Assembly: GCA_002791295.1 (NCBI GenBank)
Contig: PFWU01000049.1
Span: 47,350 to 111,349 of the forward strand
Source: Candidatus Uhrbacteria bacterium CG_4_9_14_3_um_filter_50_9
GTDB taxonomy: Bacteria > Patescibacteriota > Patescibacteriia > UBA9934 > GWF2-40-263
Direction of reading: 5' to 3'
Length of the DNA: 64,000 bases
The position numbers and the translations under genes were made by a program. Below are positions 3,128 to 63,906 of this stretch, one piece after another. The number at the start of each line of letters is the position of its first letter. Within the stretch, counting starts at the first letter, position 1. Under the pieces are notes generated by a model. The model was given only the letters and a program-made list of their open reading frames with translations. It did no database searches and was not told the DNA's origin.

Positions 3128-4774
3128 ATGAACGATCAACCAAGCGTGAAACCTGTAACAGTGCGGGGGCTACCCACCGAGGTGCGGCAGCTACTTTTTG
3201 CTGAGAAGACATTTGAAACGTATTACAACTTGGTAGGGGCTGTCGGAGGAGATAAGAGTCAAATTCCAAAGCTTTTAGTCCTTTTTTCCGATGTGCTTAC
3301 CGGACGTGAGGATATTCATTTGTTTCCCACCAAGCTTTCTGAGCTGTTTTCCATTGATGAGACAAAAGGGTATTCCCTTGCTGTGCAACTCATGACAGGT
3401 GTGTTGATGCAGGTAGACGATCTCTTTCAAGACCTAGATTTTCAGGCGCTGACTCGTGAATGGAGTACAAAAGACGATCAAGAAGAAGAAAGTGCTGAGG
3501 AGTTTGCTCATACGTATGTTGAGCAGATGCCTGGAAAAAAAGATGAACGATCTTCACAGAGGCTCGAAGACGTGTTTACCGATTTGGCAGAGGGGGATCT
3601 TACGCATGACGAGGCTGCTTCTCGTCTGGCAAAGTCACCGAAAGTTGGTGGGCTTGGTATTGATCCAACTGTGGCAGAGAGCGTAGTGGATGTGTTTGAA
3701 ACAGAAATGAAAGGCAAGGTTTTTTTGGATGATGTTCCGGTGAATAGACCTCCATCCAAACCCAATCAGCCACAGAAACCCCAAATTGAAGCCTTTACAG
3801 AAGAAGACGAAAAAGAAATTGAGCAGATTAAGCAGGAAAAAGAAGCAGCTCTTACCCATGAGCCGATCACGTCTATTGAGGGTGTGGTGAAGCGTGTGTG
3901 TGAGGACAAGCGTTTTCAGTTTGATAATCCAGTGCTCACCGAGCGCTGTCAAAAAGTTGTTCACTCTCGTGTGCGAGGGGTGAGAGATGCTTTTGCCACA
4001 CGTCGTCAGCTTGAACGTTCTGTTGAGCAAGGCGGTGTGGGGGTGACGGGGCGGTCGCTTGCTGAGATGACGCAGCTCTTAGAGCAGGCTGTGGAGGAAT
4101 ACCATGCACATGCCGGAGCTCAGATCGAGCAAGAAAAGGAACAGGCACAGAAGGTAAAGGAGGCGGCTGCCAGTGCGGAAGAGCAGCGTCAGGTCACTGA
4201 GCAGAAGGTTATGGACAAGCGGTTTGTTGAACTCACAGGGAAGACACCCCGCACGTCTGTCTCACCAACCGGACCAAAGCGATCTCGTACGTCCGCCGCT
4301 GTCTCAGCACAAGTAGAAACACAGCAACGTGAGGGGAAGATTGATGTTGCACGTGTGAAAACAATCATCGAAGCGTCTCAGGCAGCAGCACCAAAATCAG
4401 CGCCACGCCCCAAGCCCAAGCGTGTGCAGGATGTCGTCTTTGAAAAGCGTCTCTCAGGTCCCGTAGAGGAATTAAAGCGATTAACCTTAACAGATTTCAG
4501 ACGTCTTTCATCAGATCCTGTGCAGGCCACCACCAAAATAAAGGACAAAGTGGATTTATTAGAAAATCTTGGTTACGAGCAAAAGGTTGAGGGAATCAAA
4601 GCTTGGAGATCATCGCCGCTCAACCGGCTGTACATCGAGCTCGCAGAGCAGGCCGTGTTATCTGGAACAACGATTCAAGCAGCGCTCGAATCACAGCAGG
4701 AGCGAGGGGTGGAGATGTTTAAGGATGAGGAATTAAAAGCCGTGATGAAGTTGAACGCAGACCTAAGGTTCTGA
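3128..4774 (+). CDS. Hypothetical acidic coiled-coil protein (T4SS-cluster associated)
   Basis: 548-aa ORF lying 7 nt after the previous gene on the same strand. The composition is charged and Glu/Lys-rich. No recognisable motif. Confidence 0.5.
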   Translation: MNDQPSVKPVTVRGLPTEVRQLLFAEKTFETYYNLVGAVGGDKSQIPKLLVLFSDVLTGREDIHLFPTKLSELFSIDETKGYSLAVQLMTGVLMQVDDLFQDLDFQALTREWSTKDDQEEESAEEFAHTYVEQMPGKKDERSSQRLEDVFTDLAEGDLTHDEAASRLAKSPKVGGLGIDPTVAESVVDVFETEMKGKVFLDDVPVNRPPSKPNQPQKPQIEAFTEEDEKEIEQIKQEKEAALTHEPITSIEGVVKRVCEDKRFQFDNPVLTERCQKVVHSRVRGVRDAFATRRQLERSVEQGGVGVTGRSLAEMTQLLEQAVEEYHAHAGAQIEQEKEQAQKVKEAAASAEEQRQVTEQKVMDKRFVELTGKTPRTSVSPTGPKRSRTSAAVSAQVETQQREGKIDVARVKTIIEASQAAAPKSAPRPKPKRVQDVVFEKRLSGPVEELKRLTLTDFRRLSSDPVQATTKIKDKVDLLENLGYEQKVEGIKAWRSSPLNRLYIELAEQAVLSGTTIQAALESQQERGVEMFKDEELKAVMKLNADLRF

Positions 4775-4777
4775 TCC

Positions 4778-4926
4778 TGCTATAATAGGACTGTCCCCGA
4801 ATGAGCGATCTTGCCACGTTCAGGCACCCAGACATCACTTCAACGTCCGTTTTAGGACGTCTTCAGTGATGCCAGCCCGAACGTGACAATCTCATCTCAT
4901 TAGGGAACAGTCCCTACAATAGGACT
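4778..4926 (+). promoter_or_regulatory. Promoter plus structured ~135-nt leader with nested inverted repeats, upstream of the PrgI-like gene
   Basis: An extended -10 (tgcTATAAT, 4778-4786) sits directly after the stop of the 548-aa gene. The 9-mer AATAGGACT is repeated at 4784-4792 and 4916-4924. Inverted repeats ggactgtcccc (4788-4798) and gggaacagtcc (4903-4913) enclose the central hairpin atcacttcaacgtcc-gtttt-aggacgtcttcagtgat (4843-4879). Confidence 0.45.
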
Positions 4927-5358
4927 ATGCCGGAACAATTCGTCGTTCCACAATTTATTGACTCGGAGGATAAAATTTTTGGCCCAATCACCGGCCGTCA
5001 ATTTATTATTTTGATGATCGTGGGTCTCATGGAATTCGTTTTGTTTAAGCTGCTGACATTCGTTTGGTTTCTTGTTGTTGGCATTCCGCTTATTGCCGTC
5101 GGTGGAATTTTAGCGTTTGCAAAAATTAATGGACAACCATTTCACTATTTTATTCTCAATGGCATTCAAACGTTTAAGAAACCTCGGTTGCGTGTGTGGG
5201 ACAAGCGGCACACTGATTCCGAGTTAAGGGAATACATGTTCGCAAAACCGGAGGTTCATAGTGCGGCATTTAAGCGTAAGATTTTTGCAAATACGTCCCA
5301 TCTGCAGGAAATTTCGCTCGTTGTTAATACAGGAGGGGTCTACCAGCCTGAGGAATAA
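4927..5358 (+). CDS. Small two-TM membrane protein, PrgI/VirB3-like (T4SS-associated)
   Basis: 143 aa with two adjacent hydrophobic helices (FIILMIVGLMEFVLFKLLTFVWFLVVGIPLIAVGGILAFA). It lies immediately upstream of the VirB4-like ATPase genes, the position and architecture typical of PrgI/VirB3. Confidence 0.4.
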   Translation: MPEQFVVPQFIDSEDKIFGPITGRQFIILMIVGLMEFVLFKLLTFVWFLVVGIPLIAVGGILAFAKINGQPFHYFILNGIQTFKKPRLRVWDKRHTDSELREYMFAKPEVHSAAFKRKIFANTSHLQEISLVVNTGGVYQPEE

Positions 5359-5360
5359 TT

Positions 5361-6062
5361 ATGCAGTCGAAGAAACTTGCAAAACCCAAGCCAGGAGCAT
5401 CTACCGTGAAATATCTGGATATTGCGGAGATTCGTGATGACATGGTGCTTCTTAAGGACGGGACCGTACGCGCTGTGCTCCTCGTTTCGAGTATTAACTT
5501 TGCCTTAAAGTCCTTTGATGAGCAGGAGGCTATTATTCAGGCGTACATCACCTTTCTGAACTCGCTTGAATACCCTGTACAGATCGTGATCCAATCACGT
5601 CGCATGAATATTGATGCGTACATTGATCAGCTCATTGCGCAGCAGAAGAAAACAGAGAACGACCTCTTGCGTACTCAGATCGCTGATTACCGCAACTTTG
5701 TTCTTGAGCTTGTCGAGCTTGGACAGATCATGCAAAAAATGTTTTACGTGGTGATTCCGTATGACCCCCTTTCTGATAAACGAAAAAACTTTTTTACCCG
5801 CTTGTCAGAAGCCATCTCTCCAGCCGCAGCCGCAAAACTCAACAAAAAGCAATTAGCCGATCGTATTGAGCAACTTTCAAGGAGAGTTGAGATTATTGGT
5901 GGCCAGCTCAACAGTATGGGGCTTGCCTCTTCTCGAATTGATACACAGGGGCTTATTGAAGTGTATTACAACGTCTATAACCCTGACTTGTTTGATACCG
6001 AAAAGCTAGCCGACATCAGCCAGATCCGTCAGGAGCCGGAACCTAACCGTGTCGAATCATAG
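5361..6062 (+). CDS. Hypothetical protein, T4SS-associated (resembles VirB4/TraC N-terminal region)
   Basis: 233-aa ORF starting 3 nt after the previous gene and overlapping the VirB4-like ATPase start by 14 nt (translationally coupled). Confidence 0.45.
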   Translation: MQSKKLAKPKPGASTVKYLDIAEIRDDMVLLKDGTVRAVLLVSSINFALKSFDEQEAIIQAYITFLNSLEYPVQIVIQSRRMNIDAYIDQLIAQQKKTENDLLRTQIADYRNFVLELVELGQIMQKMFYVVIPYDPLSDKRKNFFTRLSEAISPAAAAKLNKKQLADRIEQLSRRVEIIGGQLNSMGLASSRIDTQGLIEVYYNVYNPDLFDTEKLADISQIRQEPEPNRVES

Positions 6063-8244
6063 TATGCCTATTAATATTGAAAACATTAAGAAGGCGATGC
6101 CGGCTTCAGCACCAGAGAAAGTGAAGAAGGTGAAACCAGAGGAGCAACAGCTCCAAGAAGAACGACTGGTGCTTGAGGAAGAGCGTATTTTTCGCAAGGG
6201 AACGGTGACGGTAAAGGACATTATTTCTCCTGCAGCGTTTGAAGTGAAACCAACGTTCCTCCTTCTCTCAGGAGTGTATGTGCGGACGTTGTTTATTATC
6301 ACCTACCCTCGACACATTGGCATTGGATGGTCTTCGCCACTCATCAATCTCAACAAGACGTTTGATGTCGCCATGTATTTCTATCCGATCAAGGCGAGTA
6401 TTATTTTGAAACAGCTCCAGAAAAAAGTAGGTGTGTTCGAGGCAAAGATTTTTGCCGATGCAGAGAAAGGGGCTCCTCGTGATCCGATTGCGGAAACAGC
6501 CCTTCGGGACATTGAGGGATTGCGTGATGCCCTCACACAGGGGACTGAGCATTTTTTTCAATTTGCGTTTTATGTCTCAATCTACGCCAAAGACGAAACA
6601 GAGCTGGAAAAGTACACGCAGCAAGTTGAGTCGCTCTTTGGAAGCAAACTGATCTATACGAAGGCAGGTTTTTATCAGGCGGAGCAGGGATTCAATTCAA
6701 CCATTCCACTTGGGAATGATGAGTTGATGATTACCTACAACATGAATACGTCGCCGATTGCAGCCTCGTTTCCGTTTATCAGCTCTGACCTGACCTCGGA
6801 TAACGGCATTTTGTACGGCATCAACCGACACAACAATTCACTTATTCTCTTCGATCGCTTTAGTTTACAAAACGCTAATTCCGTTGTCTTTGCCACCTCC
6901 GGTGCTGGAAAATCGTACACGATCAAGCTTGAGATTTTACGATCCCTCATGATGGGAGTGGATGTGATCGTGATCGATCCAGAGTATGAGTATAAAGATT
7001 TATCTGATGCGGTTGGAGGGACGTTCATTAACGTGTCTCTTGCTTCCGAGGCGAAAGTGAATCCGTTTGATCTACCGCGTGGTGTGGGTGAGGGGACCAA
7101 GGTGGAGGACATTATTCGAAGTGCGGTTATTACGCTTAAGGGGCTTTTGCGCATCATGATTGGTCAGCCTGTGGGAGAAGCAGGAAAGATGGGATTTACT
7201 CCGTCGGAAGATTCGCTGCTTGACCGAGCATTGATCGAAACGTACGCAAAACAAGATATCACACCAGACCTCACCTCTCTTGCCGATATTGAACCTCCAG
7301 TCCTGACAGACTTTCAAGATGTACTTGAGGGTATGGAGGGGTCAGAAGAATTGGTTGCGCGCTTGAAAAAGTTTACAGAAGGAACGTTTGCAGGACTTTT
7401 GAACAACCCAACCAATGTGGTCATGAGTAACCAGTTGGTGGTGTATTCAGTGCGAGATCTTGAAGACGAGCTGCGTCCAACAGCGATCTATACCATTATC
7501 AACTACATCTGGAACGTGACGCGTTCTGAGCGAAAGAAGCGCATTTTAGTGGTGGATGAGGCGTGGTGGCTGATGCAGAATGAAGATTCTGCGAAATTCA
7601 TTTTTGCGCTTGTGAAACGCGCGCGAAAATACTTCATGGGGGTCACAACCATCACCCAGGACGTGAACGACTTCCTTCGTTCTGCATATGGGCAAGCGAT
7701 TGTGACGAACTCAGCCCTTCAGATTTTGATGAAACAGTCACCGTCTGCGATTGATCTTATTCAAAAAACATTTAGTCTCACCGACGGAGAAAAATACTTG
7801 CTTCTTGAGTCAGGGGTAGGTGAGGGTATTTTCTTTGCTGGGAACAAGCACGCCGCAATCAAAGTCGTTGCCTCCTATACAGAAGATCAAATTGTCACCA
7901 CGAATCCTCAGCAGCTGCTTGATATTGAGGAAGCCAAAAAGGAATTTGAGGCTGAACTCCAAAGGGAACAAGGAGAAGAAGGTGATGGAGGAACACCGGC
8001 GTCGAGAGAGGTTTCATCAGAACAAGCGCCTACAGAAGTCGCTTCAGAAGGAGCTCCGACAGAACCGCCACTAGACGCTACGGCCTCCAAGGAGGAAGTC
8101 TTTGATATCGAGAAAGAAGCTCAGGAGGCTTTAGCACAAGAACAAAAAGATCAACAGGCCGAGGACGCTGCAGCAGCCTTGCTTAAAGAAGAAGATGCTG
8201 GAAAGATTGAAGCTGATAAAATTCGTGAATCACTCTCCGTATGA
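6049..8244 (+). CDS. VirB4/TraC/TrbE-like type IV secretion ATPase
   Basis: Walker A (FATSGAGKSYT), Walker B (ILVVDEAWWLM), and a CagE/TrbE/VirB4-like N-terminal region. 731 aa with an acidic C-terminal tail. Confidence 0.8.
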   Translation: MSNHSMPINIENIKKAMPASAPEKVKKVKPEEQQLQEERLVLEEERIFRKGTVTVKDIISPAAFEVKPTFLLLSGVYVRTLFIITYPRHIGIGWSSPLINLNKTFDVAMYFYPIKASIILKQLQKKVGVFEAKIFADAEKGAPRDPIAETALRDIEGLRDALTQGTEHFFQFAFYVSIYAKDETELEKYTQQVESLFGSKLIYTKAGFYQAEQGFNSTIPLGNDELMITYNMNTSPIAASFPFISSDLTSDNGILYGINRHNNSLILFDRFSLQNANSVVFATSGAGKSYTIKLEILRSLMMGVDVIVIDPEYEYKDLSDAVGGTFINVSLASEAKVNPFDLPRGVGEGTKVEDIIRSAVITLKGLLRIMIGQPVGEAGKMGFTPSEDSLLDRALIETYAKQDITPDLTSLADIEPPVLTDFQDVLEGMEGSEELVARLKKFTEGTFAGLLNNPTNVVMSNQLVVYSVRDLEDELRPTAIYTIINYIWNVTRSERKKRILVVDEAWWLMQNEDSAKFIFALVKRARKYFMGVTTITQDVNDFLRSAYGQAIVTNSALQILMKQSPSAIDLIQKTFSLTDGEKYLLLESGVGEGIFFAGNKHAAIKVVASYTEDQIVTTNPQQLLDIEEAKKEFEAELQREQGEEGDGGTPASREVSSEQAPTEVASEGAPTEPPLDATASKEEVFDIEKEAQEALAQEQKDQQAEDAAAALLKEEDAGKIEADKIRESLSV

Positions 8245-8819
8245 TATCCCGACGAAAACGAACGATTTTCATTCTCCTTGCGCTCTTGGTTTTACTCCTT
8301 CTCCTGCTTTGGTTCCTCATGGCCTTTCTTTCACGTACGCCTGAAACAGAAAGCGGTCCGACTGAAACCACAACAGAAGAGGAAGTCGACGATGTTATTC
8401 CGAGCAACCCAACGATTTCTGAGGAAGCAGTGGAACGAGAACGAGAGACACGTAATGGCTCATCGGATGTTATCTCGCTTTCCAAAAGCTTTGTGGAACG
8501 TTATGGCAGTTATTCAAACGAAGCAGAGTTTGCCAACCTTGTAGATGTGCTTCCTCTCATGTCGGACAGCTTTGCCTCTGAGACAGAAGACTTTATTGAA
8601 TCCGCTGTGGCTCCAGAGGAATACTACGGGGTGAGCACACAGATTGTGACGGTCAGCGTTCTGAGTCAGTCAGAGAGCCAAGCAACAGTGCTGCTGACAA
8701 CACAGCGCGAGGAGGCAAATGGGTCTCCACAAAACACCTCTGTGTATTATCAAGATATTGAGCTCGTCTTTGTCAAAGAAGGTGGAGAGTGGCGCGTGAA
8801 TTCAGCAACTTGGCGTTAA
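8241..8819 (+). CDS. N-terminally membrane-anchored extracytoplasmic protein (possible VirB8-like component)
   Basis: Single N-terminal TM helix (IFILLALLVLLLLLLWFLMAF), then an acidic linker and a ~100-aa C-terminal domain. The start overlaps the VirB4 stop. The VirB8 assignment rests on architecture only. Confidence 0.35.
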   Translation: MISRRKRTIFILLALLVLLLLLLWFLMAFLSRTPETESGPTETTTEEEVDDVIPSNPTISEEAVERERETRNGSSDVISLSKSFVERYGSYSNEAEFANLVDVLPLMSDSFASETEDFIESAVAPEEYYGVSTQIVTVSVLSQSESQATVLLTTQREEANGSPQNTSVYYQDIELVFVKEGGEWRVNSATWR

Positions 8820-11148: not shown

Positions 11149-11384
11149 TTACACGAAACGTTTGTTTCTAAATGCCTGTCCTGATCCCGATTTCAAGTAT
11201 TGTTCAAATCGACGAGCCTGGATTCTTGATGGAAACGCACAGTACCAAATAAGAGTGAGTGGGCGTAAGTCTTTTGTGTATTCAGATTTCCCGGATTCAT
11301 GTTCATCGACTCTTCGTTTCAAATCCGTGTACATCCCGTGTAAACAGAATCATTCGAGAGTTTTAAGAGGTAGACGTAGTACAT
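11149..11384 (-). pseudogene. GIY-YIG nuclease family small protein, interrupted by a -1 frameshift
   Basis: One frame gives the N-terminal MYYVYLLKLSNDSVYTGCT (GIY-YIG motif). The -1 frame continues TDLKRRVDEHESGKSEYTKDLRPLTLIWYCAFPSRIQARRFEQYLKS, matching the C-terminal half of small GIY-YIG proteins. The frames join at tgtacacggatt, where a single-nucleotide deletion is implied. Confidence 0.55.
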
Positions 11385-11642: not shown

Positions 11643-11770
11643 GTAAACGATCCAGAATTGGTGATCTGCTTGTGCTTCGGCTGAACGTCGCCTCACGGTA
11701 GGATTTACCTACCGCTCGACGACGTTCAGCCTCCAGCACGGCGTAGCTCACTCAATTCTGAATCGTTTAC
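11643..11770 (-). ncRNA. Conserved structured RNA element (copy A, ~128 nt) directly 5' of tRNA-Ser(GCT); unclassified
   Basis: A 17-bp closing stem (gtaaacgattcagaatt / aattctggatcgtttac) encloses a second long stem and a hairpin with loop TAAAT. Three copies in the window maintain the helices by compensatory substitutions. Copy A ends 3 nt before the tRNA 5' end. Confidence 0.6.
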
Positions 11771-11881: not shown

Positions 11882-12010
11882 GTAAAACGTCCAGGATTAC
11901 ACCATCTGCTTGTGCTTCGGTTGAACGTCGCCTCACGGTAGGATTTACCTACCGCTCGACGACTTTCAGCCTCCAGCACAGCGCATCTGGCGCAATCCTG
12001 AACGTTTTAC
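11882..12010 (-). ncRNA. Conserved structured RNA element (copy B, ~129 nt) directly 5' of tRNA-Ser(TGA); unclassified
   Basis: Closing stem gtaaaacgtccaggatt / aatcctgaacgttttac. The interior is nearly identical to copy A. It ends 4 nt before the tRNA 5' end. The arrangement is elementB-tRNA-elementA-tRNA on the minus strand, so a polycistronic transcript is likely. Confidence 0.6.
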
Positions 12011-12648: not shown

Positions 12649-12655
12649 CGAACGA

Positions 12656-12720
12656 ACGTGCATGTAGCGAACGTACATGTAGCGAACGTACATGTAGCGA
12701 ACGTACATGTAGCGAACGTA
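12656..12720 (+). repeat. Tandem direct repeat, 15-nt unit acgtacatgtagcga x ~4.3
   Basis: Perfect head-to-tail copies starting immediately after the stop codon at 12646-12648. The last partial unit merges into the 5' arm of element copy C. Each unit contains the palindrome tacatgta. Confidence 0.8.
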
Positions 12721-12847
12721 AAACGTTCAGGATTGCGTCAGATGCGCCGCTCTGCAGGGAGGAAAGTTCGTGAGACGTGGGCAAATCCCACGTCGAGCGA
12801 ATTTCCGACCGAAGAGCAAGCAGATGGTGTAATCCTGGACGTTTTAC
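12718..12847 (+). ncRNA. Conserved structured RNA element (copy C, 130 nt) directly 5' of tRNA-Arg; unclassified
   Basis: Closing stem gtaaaacgttcaggatt / aatcctggacgttttac. The internal stem ggaaagttcg / cgaatttcc and the hairpin gacgtggg-CAAAT-cccacgtc differ in sequence from copies A and B but keep the same pairing (covariation). Conserved linkers are cagatgcgc and caagcagatggtgt. Confidence 0.6.
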
Positions 12848-12850
12848 TCT

Positions 12851-12927
12851 GTACCCGTAGCTCAGTTGGATAGAGCGTCAGCTTGCGGAGCTGAAGGTCG
12901 CAGGTTCGAGCCCCGCCGGGTACACCA
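12851..12927 (+). tRNA. tRNA-Arg (anticodon read as GCG), CCA encoded
   Basis: GTACCCGTAGCTCAGTTGGATAGAGCGTCAGCTTGCGGAGCTGAAGGTCGCAGGTTCGAGCCCCGCCGGGTACACCA. Anticodon stem TCAGC/GCTGA with loop TTGCGGA. The T-stem has one A-C mismatch. Confidence 0.75.
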
Positions 12928-12930
12928 CCA

Positions 12931-12958
12931 ATAAACACCAGCACGACTGGTGTTTTTT
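12931..12958 (+). terminator. Rho-independent terminator after tRNA-Arg
   Basis: aacaccag-cacgac-ctggtgtt followed by tttttt. Confidence 0.7.
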
Positions 12959-12960
12959 GG

Positions 12961-12989
12961 TTGACAAAGAGAGGTTAGGGTTGTAGTGT
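12961..12989 (+). promoter_or_regulatory. Sigma70-like promoter (TTGACA-17-TAGTGT) driving the high-GC ORF
   Basis: TTGACA at 12961-12966, a 17-nt spacer, then TAGTGT. An AGGAGG RBS lies 5 nt before the ATG at 13025. Confidence 0.4.
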
Positions 12990-13024
12990 CCTTGCTCATC
13001 TTCCATCTGCTACAGGAGGTCAGG

Positions 13025-13426
13025 ATGCACACCGGTGAGAAGATCAAGGCACTGTTCGGTCGGTTCAAGGGCCAGTTGCCCAGTCAGGAGGAGACAGGGT
13101 TCGTGTCCGTTCCATTCAGGGAAGAATACGCATTCCTCTGGATCTTCAAGAGAACACGGGTAAGCTGGCTCTGGATCATGGAGCTCGATGATCTCTGGCA
13201 CGTGGTCGTGGCACCAGCCCTTCCGCTCCAGCCGGTTTTCATGGGTGCCGTCATCAGTGTGGACTACAGCAAGATCGATGGGAGAGGGCAGAAAGCCTGG
13301 GACTCGGCCTACCAACGGTATCGTCTGTATGAGAGGTTGGAGGACGAAGTGATCAAGGCTTACGCAAGGAGTATCGACCTCGCTTACGATGAGCACATGC
13401 GTGTCGAAAGAGAGGTCAGCGCATAA
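13025..13426 (+). CDS. Hypothetical protein encoded in a high-GC (~62 %) single-gene island
   Basis: ATG at 13025 is preceded by AGGAGG. The ORF track begins at a GTG at 12986, which is probably an over-extension. The coding GC is far above flanking DNA. It is followed by an intrinsic terminator. The antisense ORF 13010..13507 is judged spurious. No recognisable family. Confidence 0.5.
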   Translation: MHTGEKIKALFGRFKGQLPSQEETGFVSVPFREEYAFLWIFKRTRVSWLWIMELDDLWHVVVAPALPLQPVFMGAVISVDYSKIDGRGQKAWDSAYQRYRLYERLEDEVIKAYARSIDLAYDEHMRVEREVSA

Positions 13427-13451
13427 CACCAGACGCATCTGGTGTTTTTCA
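13427..13451 (+). terminator. Rho-independent terminator, near-duplicate of the tRNA-Arg terminator
   Basis: acaccag-acgcat-ctggtgt followed by ttttt. Same stem as 12931-12958 with a different loop. Confidence 0.7.
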
Positions 13452-13495
13452 ATTGTCTGGGTTTTTTGATTTTCGAGTGTTAAGATGCCCCTACT

Positions 13496-15541
13496 ATGGC
13501 CATTCACTTAGGATCGTCCGTCTCTGAACTTCCTGGCATTGGAGGGAAAGCAGTTACAGACCTCAAAAACCTCGGGGTTACGTCTGTGCGGGATCTTTTG
13601 TGGTATGTGCCGTTTCGATATGATGATTTTTCGGTGATTCGTGGAGCCGGCGAGGTGCGAGCAGGGGAGACCGTGACTGTGATTGGGACCGTACAGTCGA
13701 TTCGTTCACGACCAGCGAAAAGTCGGAATCTTAAAATCATTGATGGAATTATTCAGGATGAAACAGGTGAGTTGAAAGTCACGTGGTTTAATCAGTCGTA
13801 TCTTGAGCAATCACTCCCACCTGGGACGAAGGTGTCCGTGGCAGGTGAGGTGAATAACAAGTACGGGTTGTCTATGACGAACCCTGTGATTGAGAAGCAT
13901 CAAGTAGGTGTACACACAGGGCGCATTGTGCCGGTGTATGGGCTCACAGGTTCACTCACAATGAAGCGTCTTCGTTCTGCCATGAACGTCGCGCTTCCAG
14001 CCGCAAGTGAGTTTCCTGATTGGATGCCAGGGGACATTGTGTCGACAGAGCGTCTGCCGTCCCTGCCACAGGCACTCAAAGCGATACACTTTCCTGATTC
14101 ACGAAAGGATCTTGAGACCGCTATTGAGCGACTTAAGTTTGATGAGTTGTTTTTGCACCAGCTCATGTTTGCACATGTTCGAAGCGAACGAGCGTTTAAG
14201 CGTGCGGCAGAGATTGAGCTCAATGAAGTTTTTTTGAAAGCGTTTGTCGGTGGGTTACCGTTTACGCTTACCAGCGCACAAAAGAAAGCCGTGTGGGAGA
14301 TTGTGCAGGACATGGCAAAACCACACCCAATGAACCGCTTACTTGAGGGGGATGTGGGGTCGGGTAAAACCGTCGTGTCTGCGGCAGCCGCAGCGAGTGT
14401 GCTTCGTGTGGGTCAGCGGGTTGTGTACCTGGCGCCGACGGAGATTCTCGCAACCCAGCAGCACCAGGCCTTTGTGAAGTTTTTGAATCAGCCCGTCGCA
14501 CTCTTGACGCGTTCACAACAGAAGTTGGGGGAGGAAGAAGTGTCCAAGAGTGATTTAATTGAACAGATTAACACTGGAAACGTTCAGTGCATCGTCGGGA
14601 CGCATGCGCTCTTGCAAGAAAAGGTTCAGCTTGGCGACATTGGCCTCATCATCATCGACGAGCAGCATCGTTTTGGCGTGGAGCAGCGACATGCGCTTTT
14701 AGATCACGACCCAGCACCACACCTCCTCTCTATGACGGCAACGCCGATTCCACGCTCACTGGCTCTCACGGTTTACGGAGATCTTGAACTTTCAATTCTG
14801 AACGAGATGCCAGCCGGACGAAAGCCGGTGGCAACAGCGGTTGTTCCGCATCATCAGCAAGAGGGGATGTGGAGTCATGTGCGTGCTCAGGTGAAGGAAG
14901 GCCGCCAGGTATTCGTCGTCTGCCCACTCATCGATCCGTCAGACAAGCTTGGAGCGAAGTCCGTGGCGGAAGTGGCAAAGGATCTGAAGAAAGGCCCTCT
15001 TAAGGACGTCACGATTGGGGTCTTGCACGGACGGCTCAAGTCAGACGAGAAAGAACAAGCCATCACAGACTTTCGTGATAACAAAATCGATGTGCTTGTT
15101 TCGACGACGGTCGTGGAGGTTGGAGTCGACATTCCAAATGCGAGCGTCATGGTTATCGTCGGAGCAGAACGTTTTGGCCTCGCGCAGCTTCACCAGCTGA
15201 GGGGACGTGTTGGGCGGTCGGATATTCAAAGCTATTGCTACTTGTTGCCAGGGGAGATGTTGACCGGAAACGGTGAGAGCCGGCTTAAGGCCATGGAAGA
15301 GACGGTAGATGGATTCAAACTAGCCGAAAAAGACCTCGAACTCCGCGGCCCAGGAAACGTCTTCGGAAACGCCCAATCAGGCTTCCCAGACTTCCAATTA
15401 GCGACACCAGCGGACGTCGACCTTATGAAGAAAGCAAGAGACTACACCGTGGAATTATTAGAACAAGATCCACATTTAGAGGGGCACCCATTAGTGGCGG
15501 AAAGAATCGAGAGAGAATTCGAAGCAGTTCATTTAGAGTGA
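13496..15541 (+). CDS. recG: ATP-dependent DNA helicase RecG
   Basis: 681 aa with an N-terminal wedge region, Walker A GDVGSGKT, DEQHRFGV (DEQH), and helicase C motifs (QLRGRVGR). Confidence 0.9.
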   Translation: MAIHLGSSVSELPGIGGKAVTDLKNLGVTSVRDLLWYVPFRYDDFSVIRGAGEVRAGETVTVIGTVQSIRSRPAKSRNLKIIDGIIQDETGELKVTWFNQSYLEQSLPPGTKVSVAGEVNNKYGLSMTNPVIEKHQVGVHTGRIVPVYGLTGSLTMKRLRSAMNVALPAASEFPDWMPGDIVSTERLPSLPQALKAIHFPDSRKDLETAIERLKFDELFLHQLMFAHVRSERAFKRAAEIELNEVFLKAFVGGLPFTLTSAQKKAVWEIVQDMAKPHPMNRLLEGDVGSGKTVVSAAAAASVLRVGQRVVYLAPTEILATQQHQAFVKFLNQPVALLTRSQQKLGEEEVSKSDLIEQINTGNVQCIVGTHALLQEKVQLGDIGLIIIDEQHRFGVEQRHALLDHDPAPHLLSMTATPIPRSLALTVYGDLELSILNEMPAGRKPVATAVVPHHQQEGMWSHVRAQVKEGRQVFVVCPLIDPSDKLGAKSVAEVAKDLKKGPLKDVTIGVLHGRLKSDEKEQAITDFRDNKIDVLVSTTVVEVGVDIPNASVMVIVGAERFGLAQLHQLRGRVGRSDIQSYCYLLPGEMLTGNGESRLKAMEETVDGFKLAEKDLELRGPGNVFGNAQSGFPDFQLATPADVDLMKKARDYTVELLEQDPHLEGHPLVAERIEREFEAVHLE

Positions 15542-32064: not shown

Positions 32065-33219
32065 ATGAGTCGAGTGGAAGCAGAGGACATCTACGCCCTC
32101 ATGGAAGCACTGCGTGCGCGCAGGGGCTACATCAGTGCCGAGGACCTCCGTGCGCTCATCGAACGCCGCGGCGGCCCGATCATCCCGGAGCTTCAAGGCC
32201 ACACGGTGGTCGAGATGAAACGGTTGCCCAAGGGGACGAACACGACAGGAGACGGTCGACCCTACACCAACAACCGTGCGATCAGTCAGCTTCAGGTTGA
32301 CCCCGCAGGACATCCGGCGTGGGTCAACAAAGAGTCGGGCAAAACAGTCGTGCGCCACGACAAGTGTGTGCACGCAAGCCCGAATCCTGACGGCTGGAGC
32401 GGGCTCAATGTGGAACTCATCGACTTCCTCCCGAATCCTGATGGATCGTGGACGCCCCGTTGGAGCCGGGGTCCAATGAGAACGATTCATGGTGAGCGGC
32501 TGGAGATCTACCATGGTGGCCGACAGCAGCCCGAACGCGACGGACTCATTGACTTCTACCCGCAGCCGGACGGCAGGATCGTGCGTGTGTACAAGATGCC
32601 CAAGGACAGTGGCATCGGATACCGCATCATGCTCGACGCAGATGTCCTGCACGACAGTCACCCCGCTGCTTCCGAGTGCAGAAACATCGTCCAGGCTCCC
32701 GACGGAACTTGGTACGCCCTGCACGGCACCTACGTGAGGAACGGTTTCATCGCTCGTCCACTTGTGGAGGACAGTGACAGGGTCACCGACATCGCCGCGG
32801 TCGATCTCGCCCTACACAGCGGCACCCTCTACCTCATCGCAGACCACACGAAGGTGCCTGACAACACCACTCAGCCCGAGTTCCGCGCTGCCGTGCACAA
32901 ACGACTGGGTACGGGTGTCACCGTCATCTCTCTTACCAAGATTCCCTACAAGCGCTGGTTCACGCCCGATGTTGCGCAGGGTGGCTACGAGGAGGAGCCG
33001 ACTTACCTAGGCGAGACCTACGTCGGCCAGGTCGGTGACGGAAACGCACGGTTCGAAACCTGGATCGCCCAGAACTTCTACCCCGACACCCCGCCGCTCC
33101 TCGTCGGCCCCAACTGGGACCACGTGAGCCAGACCTTTCAGGATCCCGAGTACGGCCTGTGCTACTGGGCCGTGGCCGGAATGCACCTCTACAAGGTGGC
33201 CTTCAGCCCCTACGGCTAG
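32065..33219 (+). CDS. Hypothetical protein encoded in a high-GC (~63 %) single-gene island; contains repeated F/Y-x-P-N/Q-PDG-S/R motifs
   Basis: 384-aa ORF with RBS gagaagaggag before the ATG. A GC-rich leader runs from ~31966. An intrinsic terminator follows directly after the stop. The antisense ORF 31966..32724 is judged spurious. Confidence 0.55.
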   Translation: MSRVEAEDIYALMEALRARRGYISAEDLRALIERRGGPIIPELQGHTVVEMKRLPKGTNTTGDGRPYTNNRAISQLQVDPAGHPAWVNKESGKTVVRHDKCVHASPNPDGWSGLNVELIDFLPNPDGSWTPRWSRGPMRTIHGERLEIYHGGRQQPERDGLIDFYPQPDGRIVRVYKMPKDSGIGYRIMLDADVLHDSHPAASECRNIVQAPDGTWYALHGTYVRNGFIARPLVEDSDRVTDIAAVDLALHSGTLYLIADHTKVPDNTTQPEFRAAVHKRLGTGVTVISLTKIPYKRWFTPDVAQGGYEEEPTYLGETYVGQVGDGNARFETWIAQNFYPDTPPLLVGPNWDHVSQTFQDPEYGLCYWAVAGMHLYKVAFSPYG

Positions 33220-62592: not shown

Positions 62593-63906
62593 TCAGGTCA
62601 TCTCGACGAAGCCGAGGGGGTCGATGATCGCACGGATCGTCTCCATGATCTCGGGTTCGATGCCGTCGATCTCGGGGAAGAATCCACCCACGGCGCCGAT
62701 GGGGGTCTGGCGCAGGATCTGGTTGGGCCAGATCATCAGGCGGTAGAGTGCAGGTTCGCGCCTCGGGTCCACCGTGATCTGGCGGTGCACGGCGATGAAG
62801 CCGGCCCAGTACTGGCCATTCCCCTCACCACCCCGAGACCAGAAGCTGGTCGCAATGGTCAGTCGACCATCGAAGAGCCTCAGGATGCGGAAGTCGTCGT
62901 GGTAGACGAAGCTGCCGGTGTCGTTGAGCTCCTGTGCCGGAGCCCAGTCGTCGTGACCGGTCAGGGTCTCGACCCAGCACTCGAAGGCGGATCTGGCTCG
63001 ATCCATTTGATACCGACCACGGCGGTCCATCCGCTCATGGATTTCGATCCGCTTCTCTCGGCCTAGGCTCTGGTTCACCAGGCTGACCCACTCTCCCGGT
63101 GTCCGCTCGCTCGGGATGAAACCTCGCAGTTCCCGGATCTCGTCGATTGGCTTGACTGGCAGAAGCCCGTAGCAGGTGTAGGGCTCGGGCTGCTGGGTGC
63201 GAATCTCGAATGAGGGTGTCGGCGTTTCTTGTTCACCCGGGATGAACCCGAAGCGGGAGAGGATAAGGATGTCGCGGGCCCAGGCCATGGGGATGAAGAT
63301 CTTATCTATTGGCCACTTCTTGAGGTCTATGTTCCTCTGGAGCACCTTCCAGTCGGTCGTATCATAGCCCCACTGAGTTGCACCCGAGCAGTCGCCGTCC
63401 TTGGGAACGGTTTCGTAGATGCGGAAGCGGCCGGCCGCCGACCAGATGGCGGCGTTGGGCTCGTAGTAGCTGGACGGGGAGACCGGCGCAAAGGCACGCA
63501 GACACTTGATCGGTTCCATGACGATGGCCGTTGCGACGTCCGTCAGGCGGACGTAGCGGACCGGCTTCTCGCCAATCTTGAGGTTGGTCTCGATACTCTC
63601 GAGATCGACCGGATTGAACGTGCGGAACAGTTCGTCATTGAGTGCCTGTTGGGCGACCCGTACGCAGTCGCGCCGGTAGCCGCTTTGGCTTGGGTACTGC
63701 TGGTCGTCGGCGATGCAGATAGCTGCGAAGGGCTTGTCGCATACGAGCAGGAGGTCGACTGTGTTGGACCAGGCGTGCGACTCCCGCCTGTGCATGTCGC
63801 TGATCTGGTGGACCATCACCTCTTCCTGGGTGACACCTAGTACACGGATGAATCGCGTCACGACCTGGGTGTGTGGGCGCAGTCGTACGTCCGAGTGACC
63901 CTCCAT
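62593..63906 (-). CDS. Hypothetical protein encoded in a high-GC (~63 %) segment running to the window end
   Basis: 437-aa ORF. The GC-rich region continues past 63990, so the island and possibly further genes extend beyond the window. The start is uncertain. The plus-strand ORFs 63229..63840 and 63713..63898 are judged spurious. Confidence 0.45.
   Translation of the reverse strand: MEGHSDVRLRPHTQVVTRFIRVLGVTQEEVMVHQISDMHRRESHAWSNTVDLLLVCDKPFAAICIADDQQYPSQSGYRRDCVRVAQQALNDELFRTFNPVDLESIETNLKIGEKPVRYVRLTDVATAIVMEPIKCLRAFAPVSPSSYYEPNAAIWSAAGRFRIYETVPKDGDCSGATQWGYDTTDWKVLQRNIDLKKWPIDKIFIPMAWARDILILSRFGFIPGEQETPTPSFEIRTQQPEPYTCYGLLPVKPIDEIRELRGFIPSERTPGEWVSLVNQSLGREKRIEIHERMDRRGRYQMDRARSAFECWVETLTGHDDWAPAQELNDTGSFVYHDDFRILRLFDGRLTIATSFWSRGGEGNGQYWAGFIAVHRQITVDPRREPALYRLMIWPNQILRQTPIGAVGGFFPEIDGIEPEIMETIRAIIDPLGFVEMT

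What the first reader, a model, noticed from the sequence alone, without database searches (positions are those of the whole stretch)
12931..13451. High-GC single-ORF island inserted at the tRNA-Arg 3' end, flanked by near-duplicate terminators
Seen in sequence. A ~62 % GC coding sequence (13025-13426, 133 aa, no recognisable family) lies in a ~47 % GC context. The GC shift starts at the RBS and ends at the stop codon. The segment is bracketed by two almost identical terminators: aacaccag-cacgac-ctggtgtttttt-ggttgac at 12931 and aacaccag-acgcat-ctggtgttttt-caattgtc at 13427. The first directly follows tRNA-Arg.

tRNA 3' ends are classic integration sites, and the duplicated terminator looks like an att-type duplication. 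Yet the cargo is a single gene, with a host-style TTGACA-17-TAGTGT promoter and AGGAGG RBS and no integrase.
Basis: seen in the sequence. Interest (0 to 1): 0.55.

Follow-up and report, generated by a model that had tools for sequence, protein, structure and literature searches.

The report
Orphan gene inserted downstream of tRNA-Arg
A small gene of unknown function, found in only one groundwater bacterium, was inserted between a tRNA gene and the DNA-repair gene recG at a spot where related bacteria carry either nothing or different inserts; this is a fairly ordinary case of local gene gain.

Summary
The sequence features are real, but the headline number is wrong. The 133-aa ORF (13025-13426, +) is 55.2 % GC, not 62 %, and lies only at the 93rd percentile of same-size windows. 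The anomaly sits at third codon positions: GC3 is 0.71 against 0.48 for native genes, and no native 402-nt chunk reaches it. Two other GC-rich orphan-like genes in the window share this codon bias.

Two intrinsic terminators with identical 8-bp stems and T-runs but different loops flank the ORF. The first starts 6 nt after tRNA-Arg(GCG). They are two of only four strict terminators in 64 kb.

Nine related Uhrbacteria keep the order membrane protein, tRNA-Arg, recG.
- Five have a 47-84 bp spacer with one terminator, which is an empty site.
- Two have partial tRNA-Arg repeats.
- Two have an unrelated 757-aa gene.

So the spacer is a recurrent insertion hot spot, and ORF133 is a lineage-specific gain. 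It has no homologue among 5.8 billion proteins. An integrase or att mechanism is not shown: there is no tRNA-derived repeat and no integrase, and the repeat is limited to the hairpin.

Verdict: an ordinary, moron-like orphan gene unit of low interest. A conserved ~130-nt hairpin abutting the 5' end of tRNAs, seen in passing, is more intriguing.

The parts
12851..12927 (+). tRNA-Arg (anticodon GCG), the conserved left anchor of the variable spacer
   Evidence: ARAGORN and Rfam tRNA at 65.5 bits. The same tRNA precedes recG in 9 related loci.
12933..12958 (+). H1, the intrinsic terminator of tRNA-Arg. The stem is AACACCAG/CTGGTGTT, the loop is CACGA, followed by a T-run. It is orthologous to the single terminator of empty sites.
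   Evidence: -16.6 kcal/mol, z = -5.7. Aligned with the empty-site terminators. The L024 ortholog differs by one compensated base pair (AACAtCAG/CTGaTGTT).
12961..12989 (+). Promoter-like TTGACA (12961-12966), 17-nt spacer, TAGTGT (12984-12989). Putative only.
   Evidence: Read from the sequence. The -10 matches the consensus at only 3 of 6 positions and the scan did not list it.
13014..13019 (+). Shine-Dalgarno AGGAGG, 5 nt upstream of the ATG
   Evidence: Sequence.
13025..13426 (+). ORF133, a 133-aa orphan protein (15.7 kDa, pI 5.9), annotated at NCBI as hypothetical protein CO174_04840
   Evidence: No homologue except itself. No Pfam, PHROG or PADLOC family. GC3 is 0.709. Amino-acid composition is typical of a sense strand.
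13425..13449 (+). H2, the terminator of ORF133. It has the same stem and T-run as H1, with loop ACGCAT, and it overlaps the TAA stop codon.
   Evidence: -11.8 kcal/mol, z = -4.3.
13457..13467 (+). CTGGGTTTTTT, a third, partial copy (3' arm plus T-run only) of the terminator. It resembles the recG-proximal terminator 3' arm of L011.
   Evidence: Sequence comparison. Inference only; the extended fold is not significant (z = -1.6).
13478..13486 (+). TGTTAAGAT, a conserved extended -10-like element of recG and the right anchor of the ancestral spacer
   Evidence: TG(C/T)TA(A/C)(G/T)AT lies at the same distance from the recG ATG in most relatives (L013-L016, L024, L036), with variants TGCTAAGCT in L011/L012 and TGTTACAGT in L019.
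13496..15541 (+). recG helicase gene, the conserved right neighbour
   Evidence: Pfam RecG_wedge, DEAD, Helicase_C and RecG_dom3_C. Orthologs at 66-88 % identity in the Uhrbacteria-like loci (L011-L020, L024, L036).

Best explanation
ORF133 is a recently gained, lineage-specific single-gene transcription unit. It sits in the tRNA-Arg(GCG) to recG spacer of a Candidatus Uhrbacteria genome.

Ancestrally this spacer held only about 50 bp: one terminator for the tRNA and the -10 element of recG. It is a recurrent gene-gain hot spot in this clade.

In the window lineage about 0.5 kb was inserted distal to the tRNA terminator. The insert carries a coding sequence with foreign, GC3-rich codon usage. 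The ancestral terminator is now present in 2.5 copies:
- H1 ends the tRNA transcript.
- H2 ends the ORF133 transcript and insulates recG, which keeps its own conserved -10 element.
- A 3'-arm remnant follows H2.

The unit has a promoter-like site, a strong Shine-Dalgarno sequence, an ORF and a terminator. In layout it works like a phage 'moron': an autonomous, insulated accessory gene dropped between two resident genes.

SHOWN: the insertion relative to relatives, the terminator duplication, the foreign codon usage, the orphan status and the preference for the + strand.

INFERRED: that the gene is expressed and functional, and that the terminator copies arose during or because of the insertion. 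The likely route is recombination or repair at the hairpin rather than an integrase att reaction. It is also inferred that the 19-nt direct repeats could mediate precise loss of the unit.

The biochemical role of the protein is unknown. It is soluble, with no family or defence-system match. The low-confidence single-sequence model (pLDDT 47.6) suggests a mixed alpha/beta layout (N-terminal helix, five strands, long C-terminal helix), but this is tentative. My best guess is a dispensable accessory protein from the Patescibacteria mobile gene pool.
For: - Synteny up165, tRNA-Arg, recG holds in 9 related loci. The spacer is 47-84 bp with one terminator in L014, L015, L016, L019 and L024, against 568 bp in the window.
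- H1 and H2 both align to the single terminator of empty sites. The recG -10 element TG(C/T)TA(A/C)(G/T)AT is kept in most relatives, with variants in L011/L012 and L019.
- Other lineages carry different cargo at the same spot. L011 and L012 have 1 and 2 partial tRNA-Arg copies. L013 and L036 have a 757/763-aa coiled-coil gene, itself bracketed by two terminators.
- GC3 is 0.709 and exceeds all 202 native chunks. The codon-usage z-score is -3.0.
- The codon usage fits the model built from the two other GC-rich orphan-like genes better than the native model. The difference is +0.147; native chunks give -0.324 +/- 0.105 with a maximum of 0.067.
- Only self-hits among 5.8 billion proteins and 1.84 billion representatives. 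Nothing in phages, plasmids or viral contigs.
- + strand amino-acid composition log-ratio is 0.150. Sense chunks give 0.141 +/- 0.075 and antisense chunks -0.156 +/- 0.075. The minus ORF scores -0.043.
- AGGAGG lies 5 nt from the ATG and the stop codon abuts H2.
- The terminators are significant.
- The same arrangement appears in at least 15 independently assembled contigs, so it is not an assembly artefact.
- Single-gene transfers and islands are reported as common in Patescibacteria (PMC12455944).
Against: - There is no direct evidence of expression or selection. Population contigs carry no synonymous variation in the ORF, and only one W50S variant exists.
- The single-sequence AlphaFold model is poor, with pLDDT 47.6.
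- On 2 contigs some gene callers chose the antisense 142-aa ORF instead (P0007).
- The -10 hexamer is weak.
- Bulk GC is only mildly raised, and tetranucleotide composition is not anomalous.
- The mechanism that duplicated the terminator is not resolved.
- The closest available relative is still distant (RecG 80-88 % identical), so the insertion cannot be dated.
Confidence: 0.6

Rival explanations
1. This is the first reader's reading: a remnant of an integrase-mediated integrative element that used the tRNA-Arg 3' region as attB. On this view the duplicated terminator is the att core duplication, and the integrase and the rest of the element have since been lost.
For: - tRNA-Arg is used as an att site in the nearest sister lineages. 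L011 has one and L012 two direct repeats of tRNA-Arg positions 15/19-77 downstream of the intact tRNA.
- The window insert is flanked by a 19-nt direct repeat.
- The codon usage is foreign.
Against: - There is no tRNA-derived repeat inside the window insert. The best alignment score is 17, with a shuffle maximum of 26.
- There is no integrase or recombinase within 10 kb on either side, and ORF133 has no family.
- The repeat covers only the stems and T-run, and the loops differ in sequence and length.
- The ORF133 stop codon overlaps H2, which leaves no room for a degraded attR tRNA fragment.
- The sequence just right of H1 loosely resembles the ancestral spacer of L024 (by eye).
- The hairpin sequence is generic, occurring in at least 120 unrelated metagenome contigs.
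Confidence: 0.15
2. The ORF is not a functional gene. The 0.5-kb insert would be decaying foreign or junk DNA, such as a remnant of a larger element. Its open frame persists by chance or because GC3-rich sequence lacks stop codons on both strands.
For: - It is a singleton among 5.8 billion proteins, and neither strand has homologues.
- Both strands are open, 146/133 aa and 165/142 aa.
- The structure model has low confidence.
- There is no evidence of purifying selection.
Against: - The + strand amino-acid composition sits exactly at the mean of sense-strand chunks, 4 sd from the antisense mean.
- Codon-position periodicity is marked: GC1 0.575, GC2 0.373, GC3 0.709.
- A canonical AGGAGG lies at the right distance, and a terminator starts at the stop codon.
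- The ORF is intact in all contigs from several samples and studies.
Confidence: 0.15
3. ORF133 belongs to a hairpin-bounded cassette that entered by recombination directed at the terminator hairpin itself. The logic would be integron-like or hairpin-targeting: conserved stems serve as the recombination site and the loop is free to vary.
For: - The stems are identical and the loops differ, which is the pattern seen for structure-recognised sites.
- The cargo is a single gene.
- A second, independent insertion at the same spot (L013 and L036) is also bracketed by two terminator hairpins that share the flank TTTTCGTTT.
Against: - No recombinase lies nearby.
- The hairpins are 21-22 nt, far shorter than attC sites, and lack the GTTRRRY core (sequence).
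- The cassette carries its own promoter-like site.
- There is only one cassette and no array.
- The stems of the two L013/L036 terminators differ from each other.
- Any gene inserted between a tRNA and recG would need a terminator on each side, so selection alone explains the layout.
Confidence: 0.06
4. ORF133 is an ancestral Uhrbacteria gene that was lost repeatedly in relatives.
For: The flanking 19-nt direct repeats could drive precise deletion (inference). The hot spot shows frequent turnover.
Against: - The closest relative (L024) and the four most distant ones all have empty sites.
- No homologue exists anywhere.
- GC3 lies outside the native range.
Confidence: 0.04

Closest known systems
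tRNA-adjacent genomic islets or integration hot spots (tyrosine-integrase islands at tRNA 3' ends)
   Same: It lies immediately downstream of a tRNA gene, is absent from related genomes, has atypical codon composition and is flanked by a short direct repeat. Sister lineages (L011, L012) show the classical partial-tRNA direct repeats at the same tRNA-Arg.
   Different: There is no integrase and no tRNA-derived repeat. The repeat is the terminator hairpin only. The cargo is a single 402-bp gene. The insertion point may lie distal to the tRNA terminator, judged by eye.
Phage 'morons': autonomous promoter-gene-terminator units inserted between two genes, with deviant composition (Hendrix, Juhala and colleagues, 2000; cited from my own knowledge)
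   Same: It is a single ORF with an upstream promoter-like site and a downstream factor-independent terminator. Its composition differs from both neighbours, and it is inserted between two genes that are adjacent in relatives.
   Different: The context is a conserved chromosomal tRNA-recG junction, not a prophage. Neither the ORF nor its neighbours match any PHROG family. Promoter activity has not been tested.
Integron gene cassettes (an ORF plus an attC hairpin)
   Same: It is a single-gene unit bounded by imperfectly repeated hairpins whose stems are conserved and whose loops vary.
   Different: The hairpins are 21-22 nt intrinsic terminators with U-runs, not 57-141-nt attC sites. They have no R/L boxes or GTTRRRY core. 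There is no IntI or attI, there is only one unit, and the ORF has its own promoter-like site.

Membership tests
tRNA-targeted integrative island (tyrosine integrase type) | An integrase or recombinase gene within or next to the island | tested here: not met
   The island holds one ORF with no Pfam family. The called genes within 10 kb on either side carry no integrase domain.
tRNA-targeted integrative island (tyrosine integrase type) | Direct repeats (attL/attR) made of the 3' part of the target tRNA | tested here: not met
   The best local alignment of tRNA-Arg to the 568-bp spacer scores 17. Shuffles average 16.6 with a maximum of 26. By contrast, L011 and L012 have 59-63-nt partial tRNA-Arg copies.
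tRNA-targeted integrative island (tyrosine integrase type) | The insert is absent at the same site in related genomes | tested here: met
   The spacer is 47-84 bp with a single terminator in L014, L015, L016, L019 and L024.
tRNA-targeted integrative island (tyrosine integrase type) | Composition atypical for the host genome | tested here: inconclusive
   GC3 and codon usage are clear outliers. Bulk GC is only at the 93rd percentile, and tetranucleotide distance is ordinary.
Phage moron | Its own promoter upstream of the ORF | tested here: inconclusive
   TTGACA, 17 nt, TAGTGT is present. The -10 matches at only 3 of 6 positions and the consensus scan did not call it. There are no transcript data.
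Phage moron | A factor-independent terminator directly downstream | tested here: met
   H2 at 13425-13449 has a 9-bp stem and a T-run, -11.8 kcal/mol, z = -4.3.
Phage moron | Located between two genes of a phage or prophage | tested here: not met
   The neighbours are tRNA-Arg and recG, in synteny conserved across 9 genomes. There are no PHROG hits and no phage or viral matches.
Integron gene cassette | An attC site of 57-141 nt with R''-L''/L'-R' boxes and a GTTRRRY core | tested here: not met
   Read directly from the sequence, the hairpins are 21-22 nt, AACACCAG-loop-CTGGTGTT followed by T-runs.
Integron gene cassette | An IntI integrase with attI and Pc nearby, and an array of cassettes | tested here: not met
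   No such gene lies within 10 kb on either side. The hairpin pattern occurs only twice in 64 kb.
Intrinsic (Rho-independent) terminator | A GC-containing stem-loop followed directly by a U-run | tested here: met
   H1 and H2 are both listed by the scan. Fold z-scores are -5.7 and -4.3. Function has not been tested experimentally.

The most novel reading that the evidence does not exclude
The pair of terminators with identical stems and different loops may mark a hairpin-directed recombination site. On this reading, in Uhrbacteria or CPR bacteria, single promoter-bearing gene cassettes enter and leave at intrinsic-terminator hairpins downstream of tRNA genes. The mechanism would recognise the hairpin structure, with the recombinase encoded elsewhere or by the host. 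It would be a minimal, integron-like gene-capture system in genomes that lack classical integrons.
Probability: 0.06. Interest if true: 0.6.

Novelty: new member of a known kind. Interest (0 to 1): 0.22.

Why it matters
The main result is a clean, small example of how reduced Patescibacteria genomes gain genes. A roughly 50-bp tRNA-recG spacer has been hit independently at least three times in one clade. In one lineage it captured an insulated orphan gene with foreign codon usage.

This is useful as a documented hot spot, and as a case where a tRNA terminator was duplicated to insulate the new gene. It does not change any concept.

The protein is a true singleton, so its function is open, but nothing points to a particular biology.

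Tried and rejected
- The two weak hits from the exhaustive HMMER search (P0002, P0003; E = 6.6e-5 and 2e-4) are long, perfectly repetitive proteins. Their scores come from 5-7 repeated short stretches, so I rejected them as homologues.
- Pfam, PHROG and PADLOC scans of ORF133 found nothing.
- tblastn against phage and plasmid collections and a scan of IMG/VR found nothing.
- The single-sequence AlphaFold2 model had pLDDT 47.6. This is too poor for a fold search, so none was run.
- I scanned metagenomes for the hairpin pattern, hoping to find an empty-site strain, a donor or further cassettes. It returned at least 120 unrelated contigs, none with ORF133. This shows only that the sequence is a generic terminator.
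- I looked for synonymous polymorphism to test selection. The population is clonal over the ORF; there is one W50S variant, and L010 diverges only inside recG.
- No partial tRNA-Arg copy was found in the window insert.
- The antisense ORF (165/142 aa) is not favoured as the real gene. It has no homologues, no Shine-Dalgarno sequence, and a composition intermediate between sense and antisense.
- ORF133 shows no similarity to the other GC-rich orphan-like genes or to the inserts of relatives.

Full report
WHAT IS THERE

The window comes from Candidatus Uhrbacteria bacterium CG_4_9_14_3_um_filter_50_9, identified by an exact protein match (PJA45130.1). On the + strand, positions 12851 to 15541 carry the following features:
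- tRNA-Arg(GCG) at 12851-12927.
- Hairpin H1 at 12933-12958 (AACACCAG-cacga-CTGGTGTT plus T-run).
- A promoter-like TTGACA, 17-nt spacer, TAGTGT at 12961-12989.
- AGGAGG at 13014-13019.
- A 133-codon ORF at 13025-13426.
- Hairpin H2 at 13425-13449 (AACACCAG-acgcat-CTGGTGTT plus T-run), overlapping the TAA stop codon.
- A partial third 3' arm, CTGGGTTTTTT, at 13457-13467.
- TGTTAAGAT at 13478-13486.
- recG at 13496-15541.

CHECK OF THE OBSERVATION: TERMINATORS

The two hairpins are real. The pattern occurs twice in 64 kb, against 0.00 expected from shuffles. They fold at -16.6 and -11.8 kcal/mol, with z-scores of -5.7 and -4.3. Under a strict definition (perfect stem of at least 7 bp and at least 5 T) they are two of only four terminators in the window.

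CHECK OF THE OBSERVATION: GC CONTENT

The GC claim is wrong in size. The ORF is 55.2 % GC, not 62 %. The window is 49.1 % and the 5-kb flanks are 47.3-47.4 %. The ORF ranks at the 93.5th percentile of 402-bp windows. Its neighbours recG (52 %) and the tRNA (62 %) are similar.

The anomaly is at synonymous sites. GC3 is 0.709. Native 402-nt chunks average 0.480 +/- 0.063 with a maximum of 0.657, so none of 202 reaches it. The codon-usage z-score is -3.0. Tetranucleotide distance is ordinary.

Two other genes in the window show the same bias and have no Pfam, PHROG or PADLOC hit. They lie at 32065-33219 (GC 61.6 %, GC3 0.76) and 62593-63906 (GC 61.5 %, GC3 0.80). ORF133 fits their codon model better than the native one. 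The difference is +0.147, whereas native chunks give -0.324 +/- 0.105 and never exceed 0.067. One of them has 43-45 % identical homologues in other Patescibacteria and Uhrbacteria. The GC3-rich class therefore plausibly comes from higher-GC relatives or their mobile elements.

IS IT A GENE, AND ON WHICH STRAND?

Both strands are open. On two contigs some pipelines called the antisense 142-aa ORF.

The + strand is favoured for three reasons:
- Its amino-acid composition log-ratio is 0.150. Sense chunks average 0.141 +/- 0.075 and antisense chunks -0.156 +/- 0.075. The minus ORF scores -0.043.
- It has a canonical Shine-Dalgarno sequence at the right spacing.
- Its stop codon abuts a terminator.

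Neither strand has homologues. The two weak HMMER hits are low-complexity repeat proteins and were discarded. There is no family in Pfam, PHROGs or PADLOC. Nothing matches in phage, plasmid or viral collections.

The single-sequence structure model is poor, with pLDDT 47.6. Its secondary structure reads helix, five strands, long helix. No fold search was justified.

COMPARATIVE EVIDENCE

A RecG-based scan of one genome per species returned nine Uhrbacteria-like loci with the same order: 165-aa membrane protein, tRNA-Arg(GCG), recG. The distance from the tRNA 3' end to the recG ATG varies as follows.

| Loci | Spacer length |
|---|---|
| L014, L015, L016, L019, L024 | 47-84 bp |
| L011 | 256 bp |
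| L012 | 886 bp |
| L013 | 2465 bp |
| L036 | 2477 bp |
| Window | 568 bp |

The short spacers consist of one A-tract/hairpin/T-run terminator, then GTTTG-TG(C/T)TA(A/C)(G/T)AT, about 10 nt, and the ATG. Both H1 and H2 align to that single terminator. The window's TGTTAAGAT aligns to the conserved -10-like element.

The closest relative is L024/L020, with RecG 80-88 % identical. It has an empty site whose terminator differs from the window's by one compensated base pair (AACAtCAG/CTGaTGTT).

The other lineages carry different cargo:
- L011 has one partial direct copy of tRNA-Arg and L012 has two, covering positions 15/19-77. This is the classical signature of integrase-type integration.
- L013 and L036 carry a 757/763-aa coiled-coil gene. 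The two proteins are 50 % identical, and the inserts are 35-39 % GC in loci of 43-44 % GC. This gene is itself bracketed by two terminators.

The ancestral state is therefore an empty spacer. At least three independent insertions occurred, and ORF133 is specific to the window lineage.

The arrangement is not an assembly artefact. At least 15 contigs from JGI, ENA and Logan assemblies show it, most of them identical in sequence.

HOW THE INSERT GOT THERE

An att-type duplication is not demonstrated:
- The window spacer has no tRNA-derived repeat. The best alignment scores 17, and the shuffle maximum is 26.
- No integrase lies within 10 kb on either side.
- The repeat covers only the stems and T-run, 19 nt in all. 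The loops differ in sequence and length.
- The sequence just right of H1 loosely resembles the sequence right of the L024 terminator (by eye, untested). This hints that the junction lies distal to H1.
- The hairpin sequence is generic. An exact-pattern scan hit at least 120 unrelated metagenome contigs, several of them after other tRNAs and none with ORF133.

A third 3'-arm remnant follows H2 and resembles the recG-proximal terminator of L011. This suggests local duplication and slippage of the ancestral terminator.

My best reading is insertion of foreign DNA at a permissive, hairpin-containing spacer, accompanied by duplication of the terminator. The exact mechanism is unresolved. The result is an insulated promoter-gene-terminator unit, laid out like a phage moron but in a chromosomal context.

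The 19-nt direct repeats could mediate precise loss of the unit. This is inference only.

SELECTION

There are no informative polymorphisms. The population contigs are identical across the ORF. One variant protein carries W50S. L010 diverges only inside recG. Function and expression remain untested.

COMPARISON WITH KNOWN KINDS AND VERDICT

The unit resembles tRNA-adjacent islets, phage morons and, superficially, integron cassettes. The membership tests are in the table. It fails the defining features of integrase islands, having no integrase and no tRNA repeat. It fails those of integron cassettes, having no attC and no IntI. It meets the layout of a moron but not the phage context.

Single-gene transfers and islands are reported as frequent in Patescibacteria (PMC12455944).

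Verdict: this is a real, lineage-specific orphan gene insertion in a recurrent hot spot. It is a new member of a known kind and of low interest.

SEEN IN PASSING

All three tRNAs in the window are directly preceded, 3-4 nt upstream, by a ~130-nt rod-like hairpin. The hairpins fold at -80 to -86 kcal/mol, with z-scores of -11 to -15.

Homologous hairpins abut different tRNAs in L011, L012, L013, L019, L024 and L036, and are absent in L014-L016.

Across ten copies, 31 of 41 pairs show compensatory changes and 90.5 % of cells are paired. Slid-register controls give 36-46 % paired, and 0 of 500 shuffles reach the observed values. G-U pairs occur on the tRNA-sense strand.

A covariance model finds five further copies that are not next to tRNAs, including window 4784-4917 on the minus strand. 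No Rfam family matches. Three literature searches found no description.

It looks like a MITE-, ERIC- or REPIN-like structured repeat with a striking preference for the position immediately 5' of tRNA genes. It deserves its own follow-up.

Noticed in passing
window 12718-12847 (+), 11882-12010 (-), 11643-11770 (-), 4784-4917 (-). Also L011:2622-2712, L012:3357-3490, L013:905-1040, 724-859 and 8120-8257, L016:12631-12766, L019:2601-2731, L024:4864-4995, L036:1196-1328, 3315-3447 and 3138-3273.: A family of ~130-nt rod-like hairpins. In 10 cases the hairpin ends 0-5 nt before the 5' end of a tRNA gene (Ser-GCU, Ser-UGA or Arg-GCG, varying by genome) and lies on the tRNA strand. Five further copies are not next to tRNAs. 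The window copies fold at -80 to -86 kcal/mol, z = -11 to -15. Covariation is strong: 31 of 41 pairs have double changes, 90.5 % of cells are paired against 36-46 % in slid controls, and G-U pairs occur on the tRNA-sense strand. Conserved internal motifs are GAUGAGAU/AGAUCGC and CUGGAGG/CCGAAG..CAAGCAG. There is no Rfam match and no description was found in the literature. It may be a MITE- or ERIC-like element that targets tRNA 5' flanks, or a functional pre-tRNA leader.
   Followed up: partly
window 12650-12715: A 15-nt tandem repeat (CGAACGTACATGTAG, about 4.5 copies) lies directly upstream of the tRNA-Arg leader hairpin. Its unit repeats the 5' boundary of the hairpin (CGAACGTA). The copy number varies in the population: contig L009 lacks exactly one unit.
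   Followed up: partly
window 32065-33219 (+) and 62593-63906 (-): Two further GC-rich ORFs (61.6 % and 61.5 % GC, GC3 0.76 and 0.80) with no Pfam, PHROG or PADLOC family. They share the non-native codon bias of ORF133. The 384-aa one has only 43-45 % identical homologues in a few Patescibacteria and Uhrbacteria. For the 437-aa one the coding strand is ambiguous by amino-acid composition.
   Followed up: partly
L011:5867-5945, and L012:5156-5214 and 5312-5374: Partial direct copies of tRNA-Arg (positions 15/19-77) lie between the intact tRNA-Arg and recG. This is a classical attL/attR-type signature. The L011 copy carries a 21-nt hairpin insertion (cctgcctgccggtaggcaggg) in the anticodon loop, next to the canonical 37/38 intron position.
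   Followed up: partly
L013:1239-3512 and the homologous ORF in L036:3524-6000: A 757/763-aa glutamate/lysine-rich, coiled-coil-like protein with no Pfam or PADLOC family occupies the same tRNA-Arg to recG spacer in two other Uhrbacteria. The two proteins are 50 % identical, the gene has lower GC than its genome, and it is bracketed by two terminators.
   Followed up: partly
window 11152-11334 (-): A truncated GIY-YIG nuclease-domain ORF of 61 aa matches Pfam profile positions 21-74 of 78. An in-frame stop codon interrupts the upstream part of the domain. It lies next to the two tRNA-Ser genes and is probably a pseudogene of a small GIY-YIG protein.
   Followed up: partly
L010 (Logan SRR6050960) against window 12998-13950: This contig is identical to the window through ORF133 and the first 315 nt of recG. 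From 13811 onwards it diverges, mostly at third codon positions. It is either a recombinant strain or a chimeric assembly of two related Uhrbacteria.
   Followed up: no
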